35,973 nt of DNA from a virus (Duplodnaviria > Heunggongvirae > Uroviricota > Caudoviricetes): positions 1-35,973 of IMG/VR virus record IMGVR_UViG_3300014890_000016; one strand, given 5' to 3'. How positions within the stretch are numbered: the stretch's first letter is position 1; every line of letters starts with the position of its first letter. This document shows, piece after piece, positions 1,847-9,709 of the stretch. The translations under genes and the position numbers were made by a program. The notes under the pieces were generated by a model. The model ran no database searches. It was not told where the DNA came from and saw only the letters and a list, made by a program, of their open reading frames with translations.

Positions 1847-2178
1847 AACGTAATTCACGCTTCCGCAACGGCGCAGAACGCCACGCTAACCGTTTCGCTA
1901 CCAGTGCATCACGCAGCAGCTCTCGCTACAGCCTGAGCGAAACGCACGCAACACCAGACGGACACGCTGTAAAACAAACCGGCGAGCACACCTGGCTGAT
2001 TGAGAAAGCCGGAATCGTGGTCCACAAATGCCCGCGCAATCCGTTTACCGGAAACCGCATTTTTGCACTAAGCAGCGGCGACAATCAGTTCGGACAGGAT
2101 TTCACATTGTACGAAGCACTACGCACGGTTGATCGTCTGCTTCGCGGGCAAGGTTTTATTAAACAGGCTGACTTATAA
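1847..2178 (+). CDS. Hypothetical early protein with basic N-terminus
   Basis: ORF with GAGGA Shine-Dalgarno 7 nt upstream of ATG; in early operon after cox; no family recognised. Confidence 0.5.
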
Positions 2179-2188
2179 CAGGTGCTTT

Positions 2189-2476
2189 ATGACCAAAGAC
2201 TATGCACAAGGTGTATTTATCCGCTTTATTGATTTTCGCGGTGAACTGTTATTACGCGCATCCGCTATTGATGGAGTGGCTCCGGCGGGGAGAAACGGAA
2301 CCGCTGAAGCCACTTACGTTTATCTGAACGGCACTCGACTGCTTGTGGAACTTCCGTACCAGACCGTACGAGAAATCATTAGCGAAGCTGAAAAGGCACG
2401 TCAGGTTAATGGCGATAACCCCTATATCGAAATTATTTGTATGGATTCAGAAGCAGAAATCCAGAAGACAGATTAA
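2189..2476 (+). CDS. Hypothetical early protein
   Basis: 95-aa ORF in the co-directional early operon; no family recognised. Confidence 0.5.
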   Translation: MTKDYAQGVFIRFIDFRGELLLRASAIDGVAPAGRNGTAEATYVYLNGTRLLVELPYQTVREIISEAEKARQVNGDNPYIEIICMDSEAEIQKTD

Positions 2477-2486
2477 AGGGTGTGCG

Positions 2487-2729
2487 ATGGACAAAGAATA
2501 TAAAGCTCTCGTCAATAAAGCACTTGAGCGTTTTCATTTTCGCTTAAACACATCAGGGCTTCACGCCGAACACGCAGCCCATGATTCATTAGCAAGGGCA
2601 ATCAGAAGCCTTTATGACGTGGCTTTTTACGCTGACGATTTGGATGCAATTAACGAACTTTCCGAACTCGTCTGCGCTGCAGAATGCGGAGAACGCATTG
2701 AACCGTATAAACTGGGGAATATCGCATGA
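2487..2729 (+). CDS. Hypothetical early protein
   Basis: 80-aa ORF in the early operon; internal ATG chosen over the longer track ORF that overlaps the previous gene. Confidence 0.45.
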   Translation: MDKEYKALVNKALERFHFRLNTSGLHAEHAAHDSLARAIRSLYDVAFYADDLDAINELSELVCAAECGERIEPYKLGNIA

Positions 2730-2839
2730 GCATATTTATGTCATGGCTTGTTCTGATTATTTCGGTGGCCTGCGCAATCGGGATTATGCGAATTATTCAT
2801 TCAGTGAAAAAGATTGAGAATTTTTACTCTGACGAATAA
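2726..2839 (+). CDS. Small hydrophobic peptide (37 aa), putative membrane protein
   Basis: ATGA start/stop overlap with the upstream ORF; translation MSIFMSWLVLIISVACAIGIMRIIHSVKKIENFYSDE has one predicted TM helix. Below the ORF-track size cutoff. Confidence 0.3.
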   Translation: MSIFMSWLVLIISVACAIGIMRIIHSVKKIENFYSDE

Positions 2840-2932
2840 CAGCACAAATAAAACACCAGATTAAATAAGAAAACGTGAAAACCATCCGAATTAGCGGAGG
2901 CATTCACACACGTAAATAATGGAGATACAAAA

Positions 2933-3343
2933 ATGAACGCAAAAGAAAAAGGCATTGTAACTGCGCTAAAAAATATATCGAAGACCGCAAACAGAGCCAT
3001 TCAGGATGCAACAAATGCAGGAATGATTGGGCCTGCCACCACAGCCATGATGATAGCAAGAGTAACCGCCGAAGCAGCCGAAATTATCGAAAAACAGGAT
3101 GCTGAACTAACGGTTCTCAGAACACAACCAGTCACCGGACTGGATTTGTCTAACACCGGACGCCTTATTTACACAATTGGCTCGGAGCCACAGCAATACA
3201 CCATTATCGCCGGATTACAGGATAAATACCTGATCACTCCTCACCCCATAAGGGAATCAGAAATTCTGACAAATCTCCGCCTGATAGAGCGCTCTCAAGT
3301 CGCATTCATTGATGACGCACAGCGCACCGTATTTAACGCATAG
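2933..3343 (+). CDS. Hypothetical early protein
   Basis: 136-aa ORF with GGAG Shine-Dalgarno; no family recognised. Confidence 0.55.
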   Translation: MNAKEKGIVTALKNISKTANRAIQDATNAGMIGPATTAMMIARVTAEAAEIIEKQDAELTVLRTQPVTGLDLSNTGRLIYTIGSEPQQYTIIAGLQDKYLITPHPIRESEILTNLRLIERSQVAFIDDAQRTVFNA

Positions 3344-3813: not shown

Positions 3814-4109
3814 GCACCATCAACCACCAGGAACTACGCGAACTGGCGACAGACCTGCAACGAATGGCAACGCATCAAAAATTACTGGCGTTTCGCGCAA
3901 TGCTCTCGTCGTCTGCTGTGCTGGCACTGCTGGATGAGCTGGAGCACGCCAGAACCATGGTTCCAGCCATTCGCCTGACGCTCCATCATGAAATCGCTGA
4001 TTTCTGTGCACCACTGGGTTCACCTGGCGAACCGGAAACACCGGAAGCAATGCAGCGAGAGCTGCTGCAACGCATCGACAAGGTTTTTGATTTTTTCCTT
4101 AACCAGTAA
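3810..4109 (+). CDS. Hypothetical early protein
   Basis: 99-aa ORF translationally coupled (ATGA) to the upstream gene. Confidence 0.5.
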   Translation: MSTINHQELRELATDLQRMATHQKLLAFRAMLSSSAVLALLDELEHARTMVPAIRLTLHHEIADFCAPLGSPGEPETPEAMQRELLQRIDKVFDFFLNQ

Positions 4110-4120
4110 GGGACCAGAGC

Positions 4121-4267
4121 ATGCACAAAGCCTTTGAACGATGGATGCATCAGCGTTACGGCAACCACTACGACCTGACAAGAGATACCGATGGCTACTA
4201 CTGCCGCGAAATTGTGAAACGAATGTTTGAAGTGTGGTGCCACCACCGCGGTTTATACGCCGTGTAA
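4121..4267 (+). CDS. Small hypothetical protein (48 aa)
   Basis: Short ORF filling the gap between neighbouring early genes; weak ribosome-binding site. Confidence 0.25.
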   Translation: MHKAFERWMHQRYGNHYDLTRDTDGYYCREIVKRMFEVWCHHRGLYAV

Positions 4268-4294
4268 AGCACCACCGCTAACGAGGTAAAAAAT

Positions 4295-4855
4295 ATGCAT
4301 AACTTCAAACTCAAACCAATAGGTACACCTGGCGTGGCTCCGGCACATGTAAAGCCATGGACACAACAGGAAGATGAAATGCTTATCTCGCTTTATCCGG
4401 AGTGCAACACACGCCAGATAACCGAACAAATTCAACGAACCCATGACGCAGTTATGCACCGACTTAGTTTTTTACGTGATCGTGGATTGATTGGTCGCAA
4501 GAAAAAGACTCTGAGTGCAAAGGAGATCACCTTTCTCATCGAAAACCGCCGCACCAGAACGGCACGGGAACTGGCCGCCGAGGTGGGATGCACCATTCGC
4601 ACCGTACAAGTGCACCTGAAAAAACGTGGTTACAGCCTGCGAAAATGCGGAGGACTCCACCACCTGACCAGATACAGCGATCACCTGGTGGAACTGGTGA
4701 CTGAACTACATGATGAGCAGCACATGACGTTCGCCATGATAGCAAAACACATTAGTCACACACTGCAAATAAAAGTCACCACTCGCACAGCACGTTTTCT
4801 TTACGGTCGCCGCACCGCCGCCGACGCCGTGCTGTACGAGCTATTACCAAACTGA
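4295..4855 (+). CDS. Hypothetical protein with possible HTH segments
   Basis: 186-aa ORF with GAGGT Shine-Dalgarno; followed by an intrinsic terminator. Confidence 0.55.
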   Translation: MHNFKLKPIGTPGVAPAHVKPWTQQEDEMLISLYPECNTRQITEQIQRTHDAVMHRLSFLRDRGLIGRKKKTLSAKEITFLIENRRTRTARELAAEVGCTIRTVQVHLKKRGYSLRKCGGLHHLTRYSDHLVELVTELHDEQHMTFAMIAKHISHTLQIKVTTRTARFLYGRRTAADAVLYELLPN

Positions 4856-4975
4856 GTAATCATCATGCACACACAAAAAAACCGCTTGCCATGCCGCAAT
4901 CAGTCAGGTTACATTTCCGCTGCATCTCATAAAACGGGTGCCGGGATTGGAACCCCGCAGACTAACAGAGCGCAC

Positions 4976-4997
4976 AACCGCGCCAGCGGTTTTTTTG
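4976..4997 (+). terminator. Rho-independent terminator inside the early region
   Basis: AACCGC-gcca-GCGGTT hairpin followed by a run of seven T. Confidence 0.5.
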
Positions 4998-5175
4998 TGC
5001 GTACCGTATCGCCACGTCTTTTTCGCACACGAATTATGGTGGGGCGTACAGGGCCAGCATCAGCTGGGCCGGGTCCTCTGTTAGCCGGTAGTTCCAACCC
5101 TGTGCGTCTCACCACCCTGAGCTTGGAACCTCTGGATGGTGAGTTTTCAAAACTGACTAACAGAGAGGCCACACC

Positions 5176-5406
5176 ATGGCAAACCGCAAACAGCACCGCG
5201 CTATCGCGGAGCGTCGTCACATCCAGACTGAAATCAACCGTAGACTTTTCCGCGCATCACGCGTCGCGCAAATCATGCACATCAATATGCTGCATGAGCG
5301 CAGTCATGCGCTATCAAACACTTATTCCGCCTCTGTTTTTAGCTATCTGGCGGATGATTTGTACGAGCTTCAGCAGCTCATCCAGCAGCAAAACAAACTC
5401 CATTAA
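5176..5406 (+). CDS. Hypothetical protein
   Basis: 76-aa ORF with GAGAGG Shine-Dalgarno 7 nt upstream; sits after a structured non-coding stretch. Confidence 0.4.
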   Translation: MANRKQHRAIAERRHIQTEINRRLFRASRVAQIMHINMLHERSHALSNTYSASVFSYLADDLYELQQLIQQQNKLH

Positions 5407-5478
5407 TTCCTGTTCCGGGCCTTTCCTGCACCTTGCGGCGGGAGGCCTTCGCACATCTGTAACAAGAGGATTGCCGCA

Positions 5479-5844
5479 ATGATTCTCGCCAACGACTTTC
5501 TTGAATACCTGCTCAACACAGAGCGTGATCTTGCCGTTCGCGTGCGTGAACGTTATGACATGCACCTGAAATCCCTGCCTGTACCGCAGCTCGCTGACGG
5601 AAAGATTGTTATTGATGGTCGCTACATGATTGACAGCCACGAGGGAAATTACAGGCTTTACCGCATTGAAGGTGGCACCCCGTACGTTATTGGCATTTAC
5701 CAGCGCCCATCCTCCGCAATCGTCGATGTGATTGCCGACAGCATCCGCATCACACATCGCCATGCCGACACAGAAGACACCGTGCTGGAAATTCAGCGGC
5801 TGGCTACAGTCTGCCGCGACACCCTGAATGGCATGACGAAGTAA
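5479..5844 (+). CDS. Hypothetical protein
   Basis: 121-aa ORF with AGAGGA Shine-Dalgarno, immediately upstream of gpA. Confidence 0.5.
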   Translation: MILANDFLEYLLNTERDLAVRVRERYDMHLKSLPVPQLADGKIVIDGRYMIDSHEGNYRLYRIEGGTPYVIGIYQRPSSAIVDVIADSIRITHRHADTEDTVLEIQRLATVCRDTLNGMTK

Positions 5845-5850
5845 ATCACT

Positions 5851-8673
5851 ATGACGGCAGAGTACATCAGGGACTGGCAACAACCGCGCCACGCAGTGGG
5901 GCGTGAAGGAACGGGGATCCCCGCTCCTGAATCCGCGCTTTCCTCCTGGCTGGGTGCCTACCGGGTAGAGAACGAGCGCCGCCAGGAAATGGCTGATGCG
6001 GCGTTCTCCGCCACGCCGCTGGGCAACCTGATTAATAAAAGCCTGGACGCACAGGAAAAACAGGACAAAACCATCACACTGGCAGGAGACGCCAGAAAAC
6101 AGGCACGCGGCGCGGTGGGTGAAGCCATGGTCTCGCTGCGCCTGCTGCCGTCCTATCTGCGCGATCCGCTTATTCGCCACCTCTCCTTCCTGCGCAAAAA
6201 ACAGGAAGCTGATCGCCGGAAAGGCAAAAAGAGCTGGCAGGCGGAACGCTATGCACGCGGAACCCTGCGCAAAATATTCGAACGTCTGGATCGCACTGAC
6301 GGACGCTGGCTGACACCGGGTTATCGCTCCCTTGCCGGACGCGAACGCCTGGACGATTTGCTTTACCTGCCGCAGCTCAACAAACACCAGATACAGACGC
6401 TGGCCACCATGACGGCGGCGATGTTCAGCAGCACCTTCGAAAAACTCTGCGATGGCTTTGGCGCGACCGATGGCGAACTGACCATGGATGTAACGCTGAA
6501 GGCGTATCAGATGCTGGCCCGCATGGCGTTACACCTGCACATCATGCCTCCACATTATGACGCACTGACAACAGATAAAGACCGGAGGAACGAACCGGAC
6601 ACGGAGCTGCTGCCGGGCGCAATCCTTCGCCTGACCTGTGCGGAATGGTGGAAACGCAAACTGTGGCTGTTACGTTGCGAGTGGAGAGAAGAACAACTCC
6701 GCGCCGCCTGTCTGGTTTCCAGAAAAACATCACCCTATCTGAGCCAGGACGCGTTAAGCGAGTTTCGCGCACAGCGCGAGAAAACACGCGATTTCCTGAA
6801 AAGTTTCATACTGGAAAATGAAGACGGGTTCACGATTGATCTCGAGACGGTGTATTACGCGGGAGTAAGTAACCCGGTTCACCGTAAGGCAGAAATGATG
6901 GCCACCATGAAGGGGCTGGAACTTCTGGCCGAAGCCCGTGGCGACAAAGCGGTGTTTCTTACTGTCACCTGCCCGTCAAAATACCACGCCACAACGGAGA
7001 ACGGTCATCCGAATCCCAAATGGAACGGGGCCACAATGCGCGACTCCAGCGATTACCTGGTTAACACGTTTTTTGCGGCGGTCCGCAAAAAACTGAACCG
7101 CGACGGCCTGCGCTGGTATGGCATCCGCACGGTGGAGCCTCATCATGACGGCACCGTGCACTGGCATATGATGGTCTTTGCACATCCGGAAGAAATCGAC
7201 AGCATCGTGGCCATCACCCGCGATATTGCCATTCAGGAAGACCGCCACGAGCTGGGCAATGATATTACTCCGCGCTTTAAGGCGGAGTATGTCGACGGCT
7301 CAAAAGGCACACCAACCAGCTATATCGCGACCTACATCGGAAAGAACCTGGACAGCCGCGCCGTGGATGGCATCGACCCGAAAACGGGCAAGCCACGCGT
7401 TGACCACGAAACCGGAAAATCAATGGCCGAGAGTGTGGAGCGCGCCATCGGCTGGGCGCGCCTTCACCGGGTCCGCCAGTTCCAGTTCTTTGGCATCCCC
7501 TCCCGTCAGGTGTGGCGTGAACTGCGCCGCCTTGCCAGCCAGATGGCACGCAACCCGGAAGGCCCGCAACGACTGAAGGATGACGCAATGGATGCAGTGC
7601 TCGCTGCCGCTGATGCCGGGTGTTTTGCCTCCTACATTGAAAAACAGGGCGGCGTACTTGTTCCACGCAAAGACTACCTGATTCGCACCGCCTACGACCT
7701 CGCAGATGAGCTGAACGATTACGGCGAACAGAGCGTACAGATTTACGGGATCTGGTCACCACTCATCGGGGAGTCTTCCCGTGTGTGCACACATCCGGAT
7801 AACTGGAAGCTGGTAAGACGTAAACCGGAAGCGGAAGACAGCGCCCGCGAAAATGGTTTTGACCTTCAGGGCGGCCCTGCCGCCCCTTGGACTCGTGGCA
7901 ATAACTGTCCCCGTGTACAGGAAACGGACAACAACGGGACAGAACAGCCGGAAGAACGGCCAGCACCGTGGCCGCAGCTCCCTGACGGCGTTGAAGTGAA
8001 CGAATGGATGCGCTCACTGAAACGGCACGAACGCCGGGCGCTGATGCGTTCGCTTCGTGACAAACAGGCAAAAAACAGCAGTGATGAAATGCAGAGCTGG
8101 ACACAGAGCCGCAAACAACAGCGGCCTTTGCCTGATAACCACGAGTTACTCGCTAAAGAATGGCGGGAGTCTGCTGAATCTCTCGGCCTGCATATCGGTG
8201 AACAGCAGATACTGCACCTGTTACGGGGCGGCAGTCTGTACGTTGACGGCAGCATCATTGCACCGCAGGGATTTGAAATTGTGCGCAAACCGGATACCCG
8301 CCCGGACAGCCGAATCGCGCAGCTCTGGCAGCGCCTGAGCCGTAATCACGGCGTAAGCAGCACGGAGATCCGTCATAACCCGGTCGCCAGCTATCTGGCA
8401 CAGCTGGGGGCATCAGACCCCGAAGCCGCCGCACGCCTGGCATCCACACTTCAGCAGGACCAGAACCCTATGAAAACACCCGTTACCGTGCTTTCTGACA
8501 TGCTGCGCGCCATCCGTGACGCAGAGCACGCACAGAGAATCAGTGAAACCACTGAACGCGCTCGCCGCAAAGCAGACCTGCTGCGGGGTGGCCTGACCAG
8601 TGGAAACAAAAAACAGACAGAAACGGGATTCACAAATCCCGTAAATGAGCAAAAAACGCGCCGCGATATATGA
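5851..8673 (+). CDS. A: Replication initiation endonuclease, P2 gpA-like (rolling-circle HUH nickase)
   Basis: 940 aa; HUH motif region TVHWHMMVF and tyrosine motif YIATYIGKN typical of the P2 A family; about 180 aa longer at the C-terminus than P2 A. Confidence 0.9.
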   Translation: MTAEYIRDWQQPRHAVGREGTGIPAPESALSSWLGAYRVENERRQEMADAAFSATPLGNLINKSLDAQEKQDKTITLAGDARKQARGAVGEAMVSLRLLPSYLRDPLIRHLSFLRKKQEADRRKGKKSWQAERYARGTLRKIFERLDRTDGRWLTPGYRSLAGRERLDDLLYLPQLNKHQIQTLATMTAAMFSSTFEKLCDGFGATDGELTMDVTLKAYQMLARMALHLHIMPPHYDALTTDKDRRNEPDTELLPGAILRLTCAEWWKRKLWLLRCEWREEQLRAACLVSRKTSPYLSQDALSEFRAQREKTRDFLKSFILENEDGFTIDLETVYYAGVSNPVHRKAEMMATMKGLELLAEARGDKAVFLTVTCPSKYHATTENGHPNPKWNGATMRDSSDYLVNTFFAAVRKKLNRDGLRWYGIRTVEPHHDGTVHWHMMVFAHPEEIDSIVAITRDIAIQEDRHELGNDITPRFKAEYVDGSKGTPTSYIATYIGKNLDSRAVDGIDPKTGKPRVDHETGKSMAESVERAIGWARLHRVRQFQFFGIPSRQVWRELRRLASQMARNPEGPQRLKDDAMDAVLAAADAGCFASYIEKQGGVLVPRKDYLIRTAYDLADELNDYGEQSVQIYGIWSPLIGESSRVCTHPDNWKLVRRKPEAEDSARENGFDLQGGPAAPWTRGNNCPRVQETDNNGTEQPEERPAPWPQLPDGVEVNEWMRSLKRHERRALMRSLRDKQAKNSSDEMQSWTQSRKQQRPLPDNHELLAKEWRESAESLGLHIGEQQILHLLRGGSLYVDGSIIAPQGFEIVRKPDTRPDSRIAQLWQRLSRNHGVSSTEIRHNPVASYLAQLGASDPEAAARLASTLQQDQNPMKTPVTVLSDMLRAIRDAEHAQRISETTERARRKADLLRGGLTSGNKKQTETGFTNPVNEQKTRRDI

Positions 8674-8749: not shown

Positions 8750-9709
8750 ATGAAAATTTGTATCGACGACGGCTCCACCAACATCAAGCTGGCATGGACT
8801 AAGAACGGCGAACGCCGCAACGCCATCAGCCCGAACAGCTTCAAGTCGGAATGGTCTGCGCCGTTCGGTGGCACGCAGCCCGCGAACTACATGCTTGATG
8901 GCGTGCGCTATGGTTTTGATCCGGTCAGCGATCGCTTTGTCCAGACGACCGACACGCAATACCAGTACAGCGATGTGAATGTCATTGCCATTCATCACGC
9001 GCTGGTCAAATCAGGCATCACGCCACAGGAGGTGGATGTGGTTGTCACCCTGCCACTGAGCGAGTATTTCGACACAAACGCACAGCCGGACATGGCCAAC
9101 ATCAACCGCAAAAAAGCGAACGTTATGCGCCCGGTGGAGTACCAGAACGGCGAAGCATTCACTATCCGTAACGTACGGGTTATGCCTGAATCCATTCCGG
9201 CTGGCTTTAAGGCACTGGCTGACATGAGTCCGTTTGAATCCCTGCTGATTGTGGATTTGGGCGGAACCACGCTGGATGTGGCAAAGGTTCAGGGGCAACT
9301 GGCAGGTATCAGCCAGGTGTTTTGCGATCCACACGTAGGCGTTTCCCTGATGGCCGATGCAGTACTCTCGGTGATGGCCGCTAACGGTATGCGTACCAGT
9401 CACCACATCGCCAATACCATTATCGAACATCGCCATGATGAAGCCTGGCTGCGCCAGCACATCCACAATGACACGCATTACGCCAGCCTGATGGCGGTTA
9501 TTCGTGAAAAGGAAGAAACACTGAAACAACGCGTGATCCGCGCGCTGGCGGTTTTTTCGGGTTACGGGCGGGTGATGGTTGTCGGTGGAGGGGCGGAGAT
9601 TGTAGCACCCGCTATCCGCGAAGCCTGCGGAGTTAATGCGACTTTCATCGCGGACGGGGTGCCACAGTTTGCTCTGGTTAATGGGCTGTACGCAATGGAC
9701 AAGGAGTAA
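8750..9709 (+). CDS. parM: Actin-like ATPase of the ParM/StbA family
   Basis: 319 aa; MKICIDDGSTNIKLAW, ISPNSFKSEW, QYSDVNVIAIHHAL, VMPESIPAG, IVDLGGTTLD, SGYGRVMVVGGGAE and LVNGLY align along the whole length with plasmid R1 ParM as recalled. Confidence 0.85.
   Translation: MKICIDDGSTNIKLAWTKNGERRNAISPNSFKSEWSAPFGGTQPANYMLDGVRYGFDPVSDRFVQTTDTQYQYSDVNVIAIHHALVKSGITPQEVDVVVTLPLSEYFDTNAQPDMANINRKKANVMRPVEYQNGEAFTIRNVRVMPESIPAGFKALADMSPFESLLIVDLGGTTLDVAKVQGQLAGISQVFCDPHVGVSLMADAVLSVMAANGMRTSHHIANTIIEHRHDEAWLRQHIHNDTHYASLMAVIREKEETLKQRVIRALAVFSGYGRVMVVGGGAEIVAPAIREACGVNATFIADGVPQFALVNGLYAMDKE

What the first reader, a model, noticed from the sequence alone, without database searches (positions are those of the whole stretch)
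4856..5175. Structured non-coding stretch with a repeated motif and its complement
About 320 bp in the early operon has no convincing ORF. GACTAACAGAG occurs at 4960..4970, just upstream of a terminator, and again at 5155..5165 overlapping the ribosome-binding site of the next ORF. Its complement CTCTGTTAG lies at 5076..5084. The arrangement allows alternative pairings that could occlude that Shine-Dalgarno sequence, suggesting an attenuator or small RNA.
Basis: seen in the sequence. Interest (0 to 1): 0.45.

Follow-up and report, generated by a model that had tools for sequence, protein, structure and literature searches.

The report
P1/P4-type antisense RNA immunity cassette
The repeated motif and its complement are the target boxes and recognition loop of a well-known kind of phage regulatory RNA (a C4/CI antisense RNA with its IsrK-like leader) that most likely silences an anti-repressor gene by covering its ribosome-binding site; this is an ordinary copy of that system, apparently not yet described in this P2-like prophage.

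Summary
GACTAACAGAG sits at 4960 and 5155, and CTCTGTTAG at 5076; these are the only three copies in 36 kb, against about 0.1 expected by chance. The stretch holds two catalogued RNAs: isrK (4922..4996, 70 bits) and C4 antisense RNA (5032..5119, 77 bits). The complement lies in a C4 hairpin loop. In 42 distinct relatives the scaffold is almost invariant, while the six boxes vary and co-vary: 100% of cells pair with the upstream sites and 98% with the downstream sites. The gene whose ribosome-binding site is covered (5176..5406) is a homolog of the P4 epsilon anti-repressor. The host element is a P88-like (P2-family) prophage, and the cassette occurs in about 22% of complete E. coli genomes. 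The most likely mechanism is that C4 blocks translation of the epsilon-like gene. The role of the IsrK copy (decoy or termination target) remains open. The stretch is also spanned by a 205-codon Ash/Eta-frame ORF. Verdict: a new member of a known kind, of modest interest.

The parts
4865..5482 (+). 205-codon Ash/Eta-frame ORF. It spans isrK and C4, overlaps the epsilon-like gene out of frame, and its stop overlaps the ATG of orf121 (ATGA).
   Evidence: It has the same codon phase through isrK and C4 as P4 eta and the Stx2a_1447 long ORF. Pfam Phage_ASH scores 25.7 bits against a cut-off of 26. It is open to the same stop in 80 of 83 relatives.
4886..4915 (+). Promoter-like site (TTGCCA, 18 nt, TACATT) that would start transcription near 4922. 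It is the positional equivalent of P1 P1c4 and of the promoter-like site ahead of P4 isrK/seqA.
   Evidence: Both hexamers are invariant in 42 relatives. The distance from the -10 end to box a1 is 31 nt in the window, P88, Stx2a_1447, P4 and P1. P1c4 is annotated in the P1 record.
4922..4996 (+). IsrK-like small RNA / leader (equivalent to the P4 seqA region and the P1 a1b1 region): two hairpins, a single-stranded linker and an intrinsic terminator.
   Evidence: Rfam RF01394 scores 70.2 bits against a gathering score of 50. Fold.
4947..4953 (+). Box a1 (TTGGAAC), in the loop of IsrK hairpin 2.
   Evidence: It co-varies with a'. P(unpaired) 0.87.
4960..4970 (+). Box b1 (GACTAACAGAG; paired core 4962..4970), in the single-stranded linker before the terminator.
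   Evidence: It co-varies with b'. P(unpaired) 0.71.
4976..4996 (+). Intrinsic terminator of IsrK (AACCGC-GCCA-GCGGTT followed by U7).
5032..5119 (+). C4/CI-type antisense RNA: a long closing helix, two internal hairpins and a single-stranded junction.
   Evidence: Rfam RF01695 scores 77.2 bits against a gathering score of 45. MFE -47 kcal/mol, z -5.15. The P4 CI RNA and the P1 c4 RNA hit the same model.
5076..5084 (+). Box b' (CTCTGTTAG), in the 12-nt loop of C4 hairpin 2. It is complementary to b1 and b2.
   Evidence: P(unpaired) 0.92. Covariation.
5091..5097 (+). Box a' (GTTCCAA), in the single-stranded junction of C4. It is complementary to a1 and a2.
   Evidence: P(unpaired) 1.0. Covariation.
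5123..5129 (+). Box a2 (TTGGAAC), just 3' of C4.
5155..5168 (+). Box b2 (GACTAACAGAG; paired core 5157..5165) running into the Shine-Dalgarno GAGG (5165..5168) of the epsilon-like gene.
   Evidence: The distance from the b2 end to the ATG is 10-11 nt, as in P1, P4 and Stx2a_1447.
5176..5406 (+). 76-aa homolog of the P4 epsilon (derepression / anti-repressor) protein; the gene proposed to be controlled.
   Evidence: Pfam PF25738 scores 30 bits against a cut-off of 27. BLASTP against P4 epsilon gives 29% identity, E 4e-8. The P88 record annotates it as 'derepression protein'.
5479..8673 (+). Downstream genes of the same transcription unit: orf121 (5479..5844) and the GpA-type replication endonuclease (5851..8673). 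They may be affected by polarity or translational coupling.
   Evidence: The link to the cassette is inferred only.
4869..5002 (+). 21-nt inverted repeat (4869..4889 with 4982..5002) that brackets the isrK promoter and RNA. In transcripts arriving from upstream it is predicted to sequester the 3' half of the terminator and the U tract.
   Evidence: I1, 90% complementary. (MFE -51.3 kcal/mol, z -3.9). It is invariant in relatives, so it could not be tested by covariation, and it is absent from P4, P1 and Stx2a_1447.

Best explanation
The stretch is an immI/P4-type RNA immunity cassette inside the early operon of a P88-like (P2-family, Xuanwuvirus) prophage.

Proposed mechanism:
1. A promoter-like site at 4886..4915 starts an IsrK-like RNA at about 4922. 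Most of these transcripts should end at the terminator (4976..4996).
2. Read-through transcripts carry an 88-nt C4/CI-type RNA (5032..5119). By analogy with P1 and P4, this RNA is cut out and accumulates.
3. C4 exposes two single-stranded boxes: b' (CUCUGUUAG, in a hairpin loop) and a' (GUUCCAA, in a junction).
4. These boxes pair with a2 (5123) and b2 (5157..5165) on the mRNA. The b2 duplex ends at the Shine-Dalgarno, 10 nt before the AUG at 5176, so C4 blocks ribosome binding to the epsilon-like anti-repressor gene.
5. As in P1 and P4, this block may also reduce expression of the downstream orf121 and replication gene A through polarity.
6. The identical boxes a1/b1 in the IsrK-like RNA are a second, equally matched C4 partner. 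They act either as a decoy that titrates C4 and turns the gene on (Gifsy-1 behaviour) or as a leader target that reinforces termination (P4 behaviour).
7. The box sequences set the immunity specificity and differ between otherwise near-identical phages.

Shown here: the family identity of both RNAs, the fold and exposure of the boxes, selection for pairing with both target sets, the position relative to the SD, and the epsilon homology. Inferred: promoter activity, processing of C4, repression rather than activation, polarity, and anti-repressor activity of the 76-aa protein.
For: - Rfam matches above the gathering scores: C4 77.2 bits (gathering 45) and isrK 70.2 bits (gathering 50).
- The same two models hit the P4 CI/seqA region (74.9 and 60.8 bits). 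C4 hits the annotated c4 RNA of P1.
- C4 folds autonomously at -47 kcal/mol, z -5.15. P(unpaired) is 0.92 for b' and 1.0 for a'.
- All copies of both box motifs in the 36-kb window lie in this locus.
- Covariation on 42 distinct sequences. C4 boxes against a1/b1: 672 of 672 cells paired, 11 of 16 pairs changed on both sides, score 0.689 against 0.129 in shuffles (0 of 500 reach it), slid controls 30-55% paired. C4 boxes against a2/b2: 98.2% paired, 10 of 16 pairs changed on both sides, score 0.638 against 0.119 (0 of 500).
- There are 17 distinct box-region sequence variants (12 (a',b') specificity types by strict parsing) on an almost invariant scaffold, and the a and b types are reassorted.
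- The geometry matches P1 (annotated a1, b1, c4, a2, b2, icd), P4, Stx2a_1447 and P88: -10 end to a1 is 31 nt in all five, and b2 end to ATG is 10-11 nt.
- Predicted duplex energies: b'-b2 -16.5, a'-a2 -8.9, b'-b1 -13.5, a'-a1 -14.0 kcal/mol.
- The 5176 ORF belongs to the Pfam Derepression family (30 bits against 27) and is 29% identical to P4 epsilon (E 4e-8).
- Published behaviour of the homologous systems: Gifsy-1 isrK (PMC4825925), P4 CI/seqA/eta (summarised in PMC10111431), and P1 c4/icd/ant (annotation; Citron & Schuster 1990, from my own knowledge).
Against: - No expression data exist for this element, so the promoter, termination efficiency, processing of C4 and direction of regulation are all inferred from homologs.
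- In the unbound mRNA, b2 and the SD are already predicted to sit in a local hairpin (P(unpaired) 0.13 for b2 and 0.42 for the SD). C4 binding could therefore remodel the site rather than simply occlude it.
- The window's b'-b2 duplex covers only the first base of the GAGG core: 9 bp, then an A-C mismatch.
- In Gifsy-1 the published mechanism involves different long-range helices and activation by IsrK, not simple C4 repression.
- The epsilon-like protein is only 29% identical to P4 epsilon, and its target is unknown.
- A conserved ORF runs through the whole cassette, so some of the sequence conservation could be at the protein level.
Confidence: 0.78

Rival explanations
1. Gifsy-1-type activation is the main logic. 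The read-through mRNA is translationally silent by itself (local or long-range structure, C4 acting in cis). The short IsrK RNA, acting in trans through a1/b1, binds the C4 portion and switches translation on. On this reading the upstream motif copy is an activator (anti-antisense), not a passive duplicate.
For: The isrK model fits at 70 bits. In Gifsy-1, IsrK supplied in trans raises translation more than 100-fold (PMC4825925). The a1/b1 boxes are as well matched to C4 as a2/b2 (100% paired) and more accessible (0.87 and 0.71 against 0.31 and 0.13). The SD is predicted to sit in a local hairpin opposite a conserved CUCUGG.
Against: The helices mapped genetically in Gifsy-1 (the middle of IsrK pairing with the 3' part of orf45) are not the a/b box pairings that co-vary here. 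This reading does not conflict with C4 being a repressor; it only adds a titration layer. There are no data on IsrK levels for this phage.
Confidence: 0.4
2. P4-type transcription-termination immunity. C4 pairs with a1/b1 and a2/b2 on nascent transcripts from the internal promoter and causes premature (Rho-dependent or intrinsic) termination. The real target is then the downstream replication gene A (with orf121), and translation of the Ash/Eta-frame ORF on transcripts from the early promoter Pe makes those transcripts immune-insensitive.
For: The P4 CI/seqA region hits the same Rfam models. The gene order (RNA, then epsilon, then a small ORF, then the replication gene) parallels P4. The Eta-phase ORF is conserved, with its ATG at the left edge of the cassette and an ATGA overlap with orf121. 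The epsilon ORF is C-rich (69 C against 46 G). The P4 mechanism is summarised in PMC10111431.
Against: There is no kil homolog and no mapped Rho site. orf121 has its own good SD (AAGAGGA). Rho dependence cannot be read from sequence. The epsilon-like gene, not A, is the gene whose SD is touched.
Confidence: 0.35
3. A purely cis-acting attenuator. Within one transcript the complement at 5076 pairs with either the 4960 copy or the 5155 copy, toggling the SD, with no separate trans-acting RNA.
For: All three elements lie on one transcript and are complementary. Cis action cannot be excluded from sequence alone.
Against: The complement is locked in the loop of a very stable independent fold that dominates the MFE of the whole leader. 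Either cis pairing would be a pseudoknot with the C4 closing helix rather than an alternative hairpin. The homologous RNAs of P1 and P4 are processed, diffusible immunity factors (annotation; PMC10111431). Hypervariable, reassorting specificity boxes are the signature of trans-acting immunity types.
Confidence: 0.08
4. The stretch is simply protein-coding (an Ash/Eta-family protein), and the repeats are incidental to that protein.
For: A 205-codon open frame. A weak Pfam Phage_ASH match at 25.7 bits. PGAP labels it 'ash family protein'.
Against: The variation consists of reverse-complement-coupled changes at six nucleotide boxes, which protein constraint cannot produce. Covariance-model scores are high. 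In the part that overlaps epsilon, substitutions between the window and Citrobacter phage Shae_phiSM fall mostly on the ORF's second codon position. PGAP itself flags the feature as a pseudogene.
Confidence: 0.03

Closest known systems
Phage P1/P7 immI region (c4 antisense RNA - icd - ant)
   Same: The C4 covariance model hits both (77 bits here, 69 bits in P1). The order is the same: promoter, a1, b1, C4 (b', a'), a2, b2, SD, first ORF. The spacings are almost identical: -10 to a1 is 31 nt, a1 to b1 14-15 nt, b' to a' 14-15 nt, and b2 end to ATG 10-11 nt. Box sequence sets the immunity type. The controlled function is an anti-repressor.
   Different: The first ORF is a P4-epsilon homolog, not icd, and there is no Ant1/Ant2. 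The upstream region fits isrK (with a terminator) far better than c4-a1b1, which scores 18 bits against a gathering score of 46.7. The host phage belongs to the P2 family, not to Punavirus. No C1 operator comparable to Op51 was looked for.
Satellite phage P4 immunity (seqA - CI RNA/seqB - seqC, eta/kil, epsilon)
   Same: Both RNAs hit the same Rfam models. The layout has two boxes at three sites. An Eta-phase ORF runs through the RNAs. An epsilon homolog lies downstream, followed by a small ORF and then the replication gene. Both families show many box types on a conserved scaffold (11 types in 76 P4-like loci).
   Different: There is no kil ORF; b2 abuts the SD of the epsilon-like gene directly. 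The spacer between isrK and C4 is about 75 nt shorter. The Eta-phase ORF is out of frame with the downstream gene. The replication gene is GpA, not the alpha primase. The host element is a complete helper-type phage, not a satellite. The box repertoires do not overlap those of P4-like elements.
Gifsy-1 isrK - STnc1160/orf45 - anrP locus of Salmonella (PMC4825925)
   Same: An isrK-family sRNA with a leaky terminator, a read-through mRNA, a stable processed RNA downstream that is complementary to IsrK, and an anti-repressor gene as the output. The AUG at 5035, within the conserved UUAUGG at the 5' end of C4, appears to correspond in position to the orf45 start (not checked on the Gifsy-1 sequence).
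   Different: The output gene is of a different family (epsilon-like rather than AnrP). The published switch uses other helices. No AntQ-type antiterminator was noted next to the module. The Gifsy-1 sequence itself was not examined here.
Phage P22 immI (sar antisense RNA - ant)
   Same: Functional analogy only: a small antisense RNA blocks the RBS of an anti-repressor gene as a second immunity layer.
   Different: sar is transcribed from the opposite strand of its target and has no sequence or structural relationship to C4. This comparison rests on my own knowledge and was not tested.

Membership tests
Rfam RF01695 C4 antisense RNA | Covariance-model score at or above the gathering score (45 bits) over the full model | tested here: met
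   77.2 bits, model positions 1-87 of 87, window 5032..5119 +.
Rfam RF01695 C4 antisense RNA | A long closing helix enclosing two hairpins, with the recognition boxes left single-stranded (hairpin-2 loop and 3' junction) | tested here: met
   The MFE structure equals the centroid, -47 kcal/mol, z -5.15. P(unpaired) is 0.92 for b' and 1.0 for a'. Hairpin 1 shows two compensatory pair changes relative to its relatives.
Rfam RF01394 isrK | Covariance-model score at or above the gathering score (50 bits); three hairpins, the last an intrinsic terminator | tested here: met
   70.2 bits, model positions 1-77 of 77, window 4922..4996. Fold and terminator.
Rfam RF03163 c4-a1b1 | Covariance-model score at or above the gathering score (46.7 bits) | tested here: not met
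   18 bits at 4909..4961. P1 itself scores 51 bits. The window's upstream target region is of the isrK/seqA type.
P1/P7 immI system | C4 boxes complementary to a pair of sites downstream (a2, b2), with b2 adjoining the SD of the first ORF | tested here: met
   98.2% of cells paired and 10 of 16 pairs with changes on both sides. The b2 end lies 10 nt from the ATG, against 11 nt in P1.
P1/P7 immI system | A second pair of the same sites upstream of C4 (a1, b1) on the same transcript | tested here: met
   100% of cells paired and 11 of 16 pairs with changes on both sides. That they lie on the same transcript is inferred from the promoter-like site.
P1/P7 immI system | C4 is excised from the precursor (RNase P) and acts in trans | not testable with these tools
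   This needs RNA mapping. Only the conserved scaffold and the 3' CACCACC tail are visible in the sequence.
P1/P7 immI system | The first ORF is icd and is coupled to ant1/ant2 | tested here: not met
   The first ORF matches Pfam Derepression (the P4 epsilon family), not Icd, and no Ant or Rha domain follows.
P4 immunity (seqA-CI-seqC) | A CI-type RNA with seqB complementary to seqA upstream and seqC downstream | tested here: met
   The P4 CI and seqA regions hit C4 and isrK. P4 has the same box arrangement (GTGAGAA/TTCTCAC and TTCACAGG/CCTGTGAA).
P4 immunity (seqA-CI-seqC) | An epsilon (derepression) gene downstream of the RNA | tested here: met
   PF25738 scores 30 bits against a cut-off of 27. 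BLASTP against P4 epsilon gives E 4e-8, 29% identity. Alignment A2 has 17 invariant columns.
P4 immunity (seqA-CI-seqC) | An Eta ORF reading through the RNAs (Pfam Phage_ASH), in frame with kil | tested here: inconclusive
   The codon phase is the same and the frame is open, but Phage_ASH scores 25.7 bits against a cut-off of 26. There is no kil, and the frame is out of phase with the downstream gene.
P4 immunity (seqA-CI-seqC) | Immunity works by premature Rho-dependent termination (timm) | not testable with these tools
   Only a mild excess of C over G in 5176..5406 (69 against 46).
Gifsy-1 isrK locus | Short IsrK activates translation of its own read-through mRNA in trans | not testable with these tools
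   Described in PMC4825925. Here only the homologous parts are present.

The most novel reading that the evidence does not exclude
The 205-codon Ash/Eta-frame ORF (4865..5482) is really translated. On this reading the cassette is a dual-coded RNA/protein region, and the ORF overlaps the whole epsilon-like gene in another frame. Ribosomes that start at 4865 on transcripts from the early promoter, or at the conserved AUG at 5035 inside C4, would read through the terminator, through C4 and over the blocked SD. They would then deliver translation by ATGA coupling to orf121 and replication gene A, a translational bypass of the RNA immunity. Combined with the freely reassorting a and b boxes, this would give P2-family phages a two-key RNA immunity barcode with a built-in override.
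Probability: 0.2. Interest if true: 0.5.

Novelty: new member of a known kind. Interest (0 to 1): 0.3.

Why it matters
The finding explains a conserved 'non-coding' block that genome annotation currently labels as a hypothetical protein or an 'ash family' pseudogene, in a prophage family present in about one in five complete E. coli genomes.

It shows that helper-type P2-family phages carry the same RNA immunity module plus epsilon anti-repressor homolog as their satellite P4. This bears on how satellites and helpers have exchanged regulatory modules.

If the inferred function holds, it also provides a natural set of at least 12-17 orthogonal antisense/target specificities on one scaffold, which could be useful for studies of immunity typing. 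It does not reveal a new principle.

Tried and rejected
1. tRNA or tmRNA: none in the window.
2. Chance repeats: rejected by shuffles and by covariation.
3. Classical attenuator with nested alternative hairpins: the MFE of the whole leader keeps C4 folded, and the box pairings would be pseudoknots. RNAcofold cannot represent them, so only duplex energies were used.
4. c4-a1b1 Rfam family for the upstream sites: below threshold.
5. orf121 as a homolog of P4 orf151: no similarity. No Pfam, NCBIfam or PDB lead for orf121. No PDB relative of the epsilon-like protein.
6. RNA cross-immunity between P4-like satellites and P88-like phages: the box repertoires are disjoint, with 0 shared a', b' or combinations.
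7. More distant epsilon-like loci to test the overlapping ORF: the genome-contig scan returned only 7 loci, 3 of them close relatives.
8. The original P4 papers (PMC94026, PMC176756) are not held, so P4 mechanistic details rest on the summaries in PMC10111431 and PMC4825925 and on my own knowledge.
9. The P88 and PhiSM papers do not mention the module, and literature searches for a description in P2-like phages found nothing.

Full report
**1. Observation**

The sequence is as described. GACTAACAGAG occurs at 4960..4970 and 5155..5165, and CTCTGTTAG at 5076..5084. The 9-mer CTAACAGAG and its complement occur three times in the 35,973-nt window, all in this locus. Shuffles give a mean of 0.10, and 0 of 100 shuffles reach three. 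A terminator-like hairpin with a U tract follows the first copy (4976..4996). The second copy runs into the GAGG Shine-Dalgarno that lies 7 nt before the ATG at 5176.

These are again the only three copies in the window.

**2. What it is**

An Rfam scan of the whole window gave exactly two hits, both inside the finding (repeated):
- isrK (RF01394): 4922..4996, 70.2 bits against a gathering score of 50.
- C4 antisense RNA (RF01695): 5032..5119, 77.2 bits against a gathering score of 45.

The positions of the motifs within these RNAs are as follows:
- The first motif copy (b1) lies in the single-stranded linker of the isrK RNA.
- TTGGAAC (a1) lies in the loop of isrK's second hairpin.
- The complement CTCTGTTAG (b') is the loop of C4's second hairpin.
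- GTTCCAA (a') is C4's single-stranded junction.
- The second copies (a2, b2) lie just 3' of C4, and b2 ends at the SD.

C4 folds on its own at -47 kcal/mol (z -5.15; 0 of 200 shuffles fold as well) and keeps that fold within the 279-nt leader. The boxes are predicted to be exposed: P(unpaired) is 0.92 for b', 1.0 for a', 0.87 for a1 and 0.71 for b1.

**3. Relatives**

The window is a complete P88-like prophage (Peduoviridae, Xuanwuvirus) with an integrase, a C-type HTH repressor, Cox and a GpA replication protein.

The same two Rfam models hit P88, Citrobacter phage Shae_phiSM, a lambdoid Stx2a phage, and satellite phage P4 itself. In P4 they fall on the CI RNA and the seqA region. C4 also hits the annotated c4 RNA of phage P1.

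The P1 record annotates promoter P1c4, a1, b1, c4, a2, b2 and icd. Measured on the sequences, the layout is nearly superimposable in the window, P88, Stx2a_1447, P4 and P1:

| Interval | Distance |
|---|---|
| -10 end to a1 | 31 nt in all five |
| a1 to b1 | 14-16 nt |
| b' to a' | 14-15 nt |
| a' to a2 | 29-35 nt |
| a2 to b2 | 29-34 nt |
| b2 end to ATG | 10-11 nt |

A promoter-like site (TTGCCA, 18 nt, TACATT; 4886..4915) sits where P1c4 sits. Both of its hexamers are invariant in all relatives.

**4. Is the pairing real?**

I fetched 80 IMG/VR loci that encode the downstream protein at 92-100% identity. Together with the window and Shae_phiSM they give 42 distinct 326-nt sequences, which I aligned (A1).

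The scaffold is almost invariant, but the six boxes are hypervariable. There are at least 5 a-types and about 10 b-types, reassorted into 17 distinct box-region sequence variants, which reduce to 12 (a',b') specificity types on strict parsing. In every case the three copies of a box change together.

| Measure | C4 boxes vs upstream sites | C4 boxes vs downstream sites |
|---|---|---|
| Cells forming standard pairs | 672 of 672 (100%) | 98.2% |
| Pairs changed on both sides | 11 of 16 | 10 of 16 |
| Covariation score (shuffled mean) | 0.689 (0.129) | 0.638 (0.119) |
| Shuffles reaching the observed score | 0 of 500 | 0 of 500 |
| Partners slid by 1-3 columns | 30-55% paired | 36-48% paired |

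This is strong evidence that C4 pairs with both target sets and that box sequence defines specificity types, as is known for P1 against P7 and among P4-like elements. P4-like satellites show the same pattern, with 11 types in 76 loci.

**5. What is controlled**

The ORF at 5176..5406 (76 aa) belongs to the Pfam Derepression family (PF25738, 30 bits against a cut-off of 27). It aligns with P4 epsilon at 29% identity, E 4e-8, and P88 annotates it as a derepression protein. From my own knowledge (Liu et al. 1998), P4 epsilon is an anti-repressor that binds the P2 C repressor.

orf121 and the GpA replication gene follow. The module is therefore: RNA immunity element, then epsilon-like anti-repressor, then a small ORF, then the replication gene. 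This parallels P4 (CI, [kil], epsilon, orf151, alpha) and is functionally like P1 (c4, icd, ant).

**6. Most likely mechanism**

C4, released from read-through transcripts, pairs through a' and b' with a2 and b2. Predicted duplex energies are -8.9 and -16.5 kcal/mol. This covers the region from -53 to -11 relative to the AUG and blocks initiation on the epsilon-like gene, with possible polarity on orf121 and A.

The IsrK-like RNA carries an equally good target (-14.0 and -13.5 kcal/mol) that is more accessible. In Gifsy-1, short IsrK activates translation of its own read-through mRNA (PMC4825925). In P4, pairing between CI and seqA drives early termination (PMC10111431). Sequence alone cannot decide which of these applies here.

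The following steps are inferred and not shown: promoter activity, processing of C4, the sign of regulation, Rho involvement, and the anti-repressor activity of the 76-aa protein. One caveat is that b2 and the SD are already predicted to sit in a local hairpin opposite a conserved CUCUGG.

**7. The stretch is not ORF-free**

A 205-codon ORF (4865..5482) spans it. Through isrK and C4 it is in the same codon phase as P4 eta and as the long 'antirepressor' ORF of Stx2a_1447. It matches Pfam Phage_ASH at 25.7 bits against a cut-off of 26; P4 eta scores 82 bits. PGAP labels it an 'ash family' pseudogene.

- Its ATG lies 9 nt after the stop of the upstream gene.
- An in-frame ATG is present at the left edge of the cassette even where the upstream gene differs.
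- The frame is open to the same stop in 80 of 83 relatives, and also in Salmonella and E. albertii copies.
- The stop overlaps the ATG of orf121 as ATGA.
- Unlike in P4, the frame is out of phase with the next gene and overlaps the whole epsilon-like gene.

Shuffle tests are suggestive but not conclusive. P(frame open from 4865 to 5175) is 0.017. With the epsilon protein held fixed, P(alternative frame open) is 0.08 for the window allele and 0.006 for the Shae_phiSM allele. Substitutions in the overlap fall mainly on the ORF's second codon position, so it is not constrained as a protein there.

By analogy with P4 eta, translation of this frame on transcripts from the early promoter could make them insensitive to the RNA immunity. 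This is a hypothesis.

**8. Comparison and novelty**

Both RNAs are members of curated Rfam families, and the system-level layout meets the sequence-testable criteria of P1 immI and P4 immunity.

The differences are these: the host phage family; the absence of icd, kil and ant; direct control of an epsilon homolog; an isrK-type rather than a c4-a1b1-type upstream region (18 bits against 46.7); and the out-of-frame Eta-phase ORF.

The two papers on P88 and PhiSM do not mention the module, and full-text searches found no description of it in P2-like phages. The cassette plus the epsilon-like gene occurs in 1,199 of 5,426 complete E. coli genomes.

I rate it a new member of a known kind with interest about 0.3. 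It is a clean and widespread example, but it shows no new principle. The idea that satellites and helpers share box types, which would give RNA cross-immunity, was tested and not supported, because no boxes are shared.

Noticed in passing
These are the only three copies in the window and complete the two-box a/b layout of P1 immI and P4 immunity.
   Followed up: yes
window 4865..5482 (+): A 205-codon ORF in the P4-eta / Pfam Phage_ASH phase spans isrK and C4, overlaps the entire epsilon-like gene out of frame and ends in ATGA on the start of orf121. It is kept open in 80 of 83 relatives and in Salmonella and E. albertii copies. Shuffle tests give P = 0.006-0.08. The conserved AUG at 5035 inside C4 is in this frame and appears to correspond to the Gifsy-1 orf45 start (not checked on the Gifsy-1 sequence).
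   Followed up: partly
window 4869..4889 and 4982..5002: A 21-nt inverted repeat, 90% complementary, brackets the isrK promoter and RNA. In RNA arriving from upstream it is predicted to sequester the 3' half of the isrK terminator and the U tract (MFE -51.3 kcal/mol, z -3.9), which could act as an antiterminator for early-operon transcripts. Its A7 run also sits where a UP element would lie (-47..-41). It is invariant in relatives and absent from P4, P1 and Stx2a_1447, so it remains untested.
   Followed up: partly
window 5131..5165: A conserved CUCUGG (5131..5136) can pair with the CAGAG(AGG) of b2 and the SD, putting the ribosome-binding site into a local hairpin even without C4. P(unpaired) is 0.13 for b2 and 0.42 for the SD.
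   Followed up: partly
window 5036..5045 and 5168..5177: The 5' strand of the C4 closing helix (AUGGUGGGGC) is complementary to GCCACACCAU, which spans the SD-AUG spacer and the start codon. P4 has a similar complementarity (AUGGUAGC / GCUGCCAU). It may be trivial (AUGG against CCAU) or it may be an alternative structure of the unprocessed precursor.
   Followed up: no
window 4295..4855 versus L001 (P88) 4084..4914: The gene immediately upstream of the cassette is a variable cargo slot: a 186-aa HTH protein here and in Shae_phiSM, and an SPFH-domain protein in P88 and many E. coli prophages. Sequence similarity between the phages resumes exactly at the left edge of the cassette, near 4865..4872.
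   Followed up: partly
L002 (Stx2a_1447) 2146..3297; L004 (P4) 8168..8584: Database annotations translate straight through the isrK and C4 RNAs: 'antirepressor' in Stx2a_1447, 'cI gene product' in P4, 'ash family protein' in RefSeq E. coli, and a minus-strand hypothetical CDS in P88. The RNA genes themselves are not annotated in these records.
   Followed up: partly
L087-L166 versus L005-L084: The a' boxes of P88-like phages all end in AA before CCC, while those of P4-like and Stx2a elements end in AC. One P88-like a' (GTGGAAA) is the exact reverse complement of a P4-like a' (TTTCCAC), so the two C4 RNAs could in principle kiss through that one box. No b box matches, so cross-talk is unlikely.
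   Followed up: partly
L168 (NZ_JBQPOM010000071.1, labelled Vagococcus sp.): A 226-kb contig of a Gram-positive 'Vagococcus' assembly carries a P88-like cassette with 91% protein identity to the E. coli version. The contig is probably enterobacterial contamination.
   Followed up: no
window 8750..9709: A ParM-type plasmid segregation actin (StbA_N plus ParM C-terminal domain, E 1e-81) lies directly after the replication gene A in this P2-like phage, which hints at a plasmid-like maintenance or partition function.
   Followed up: no
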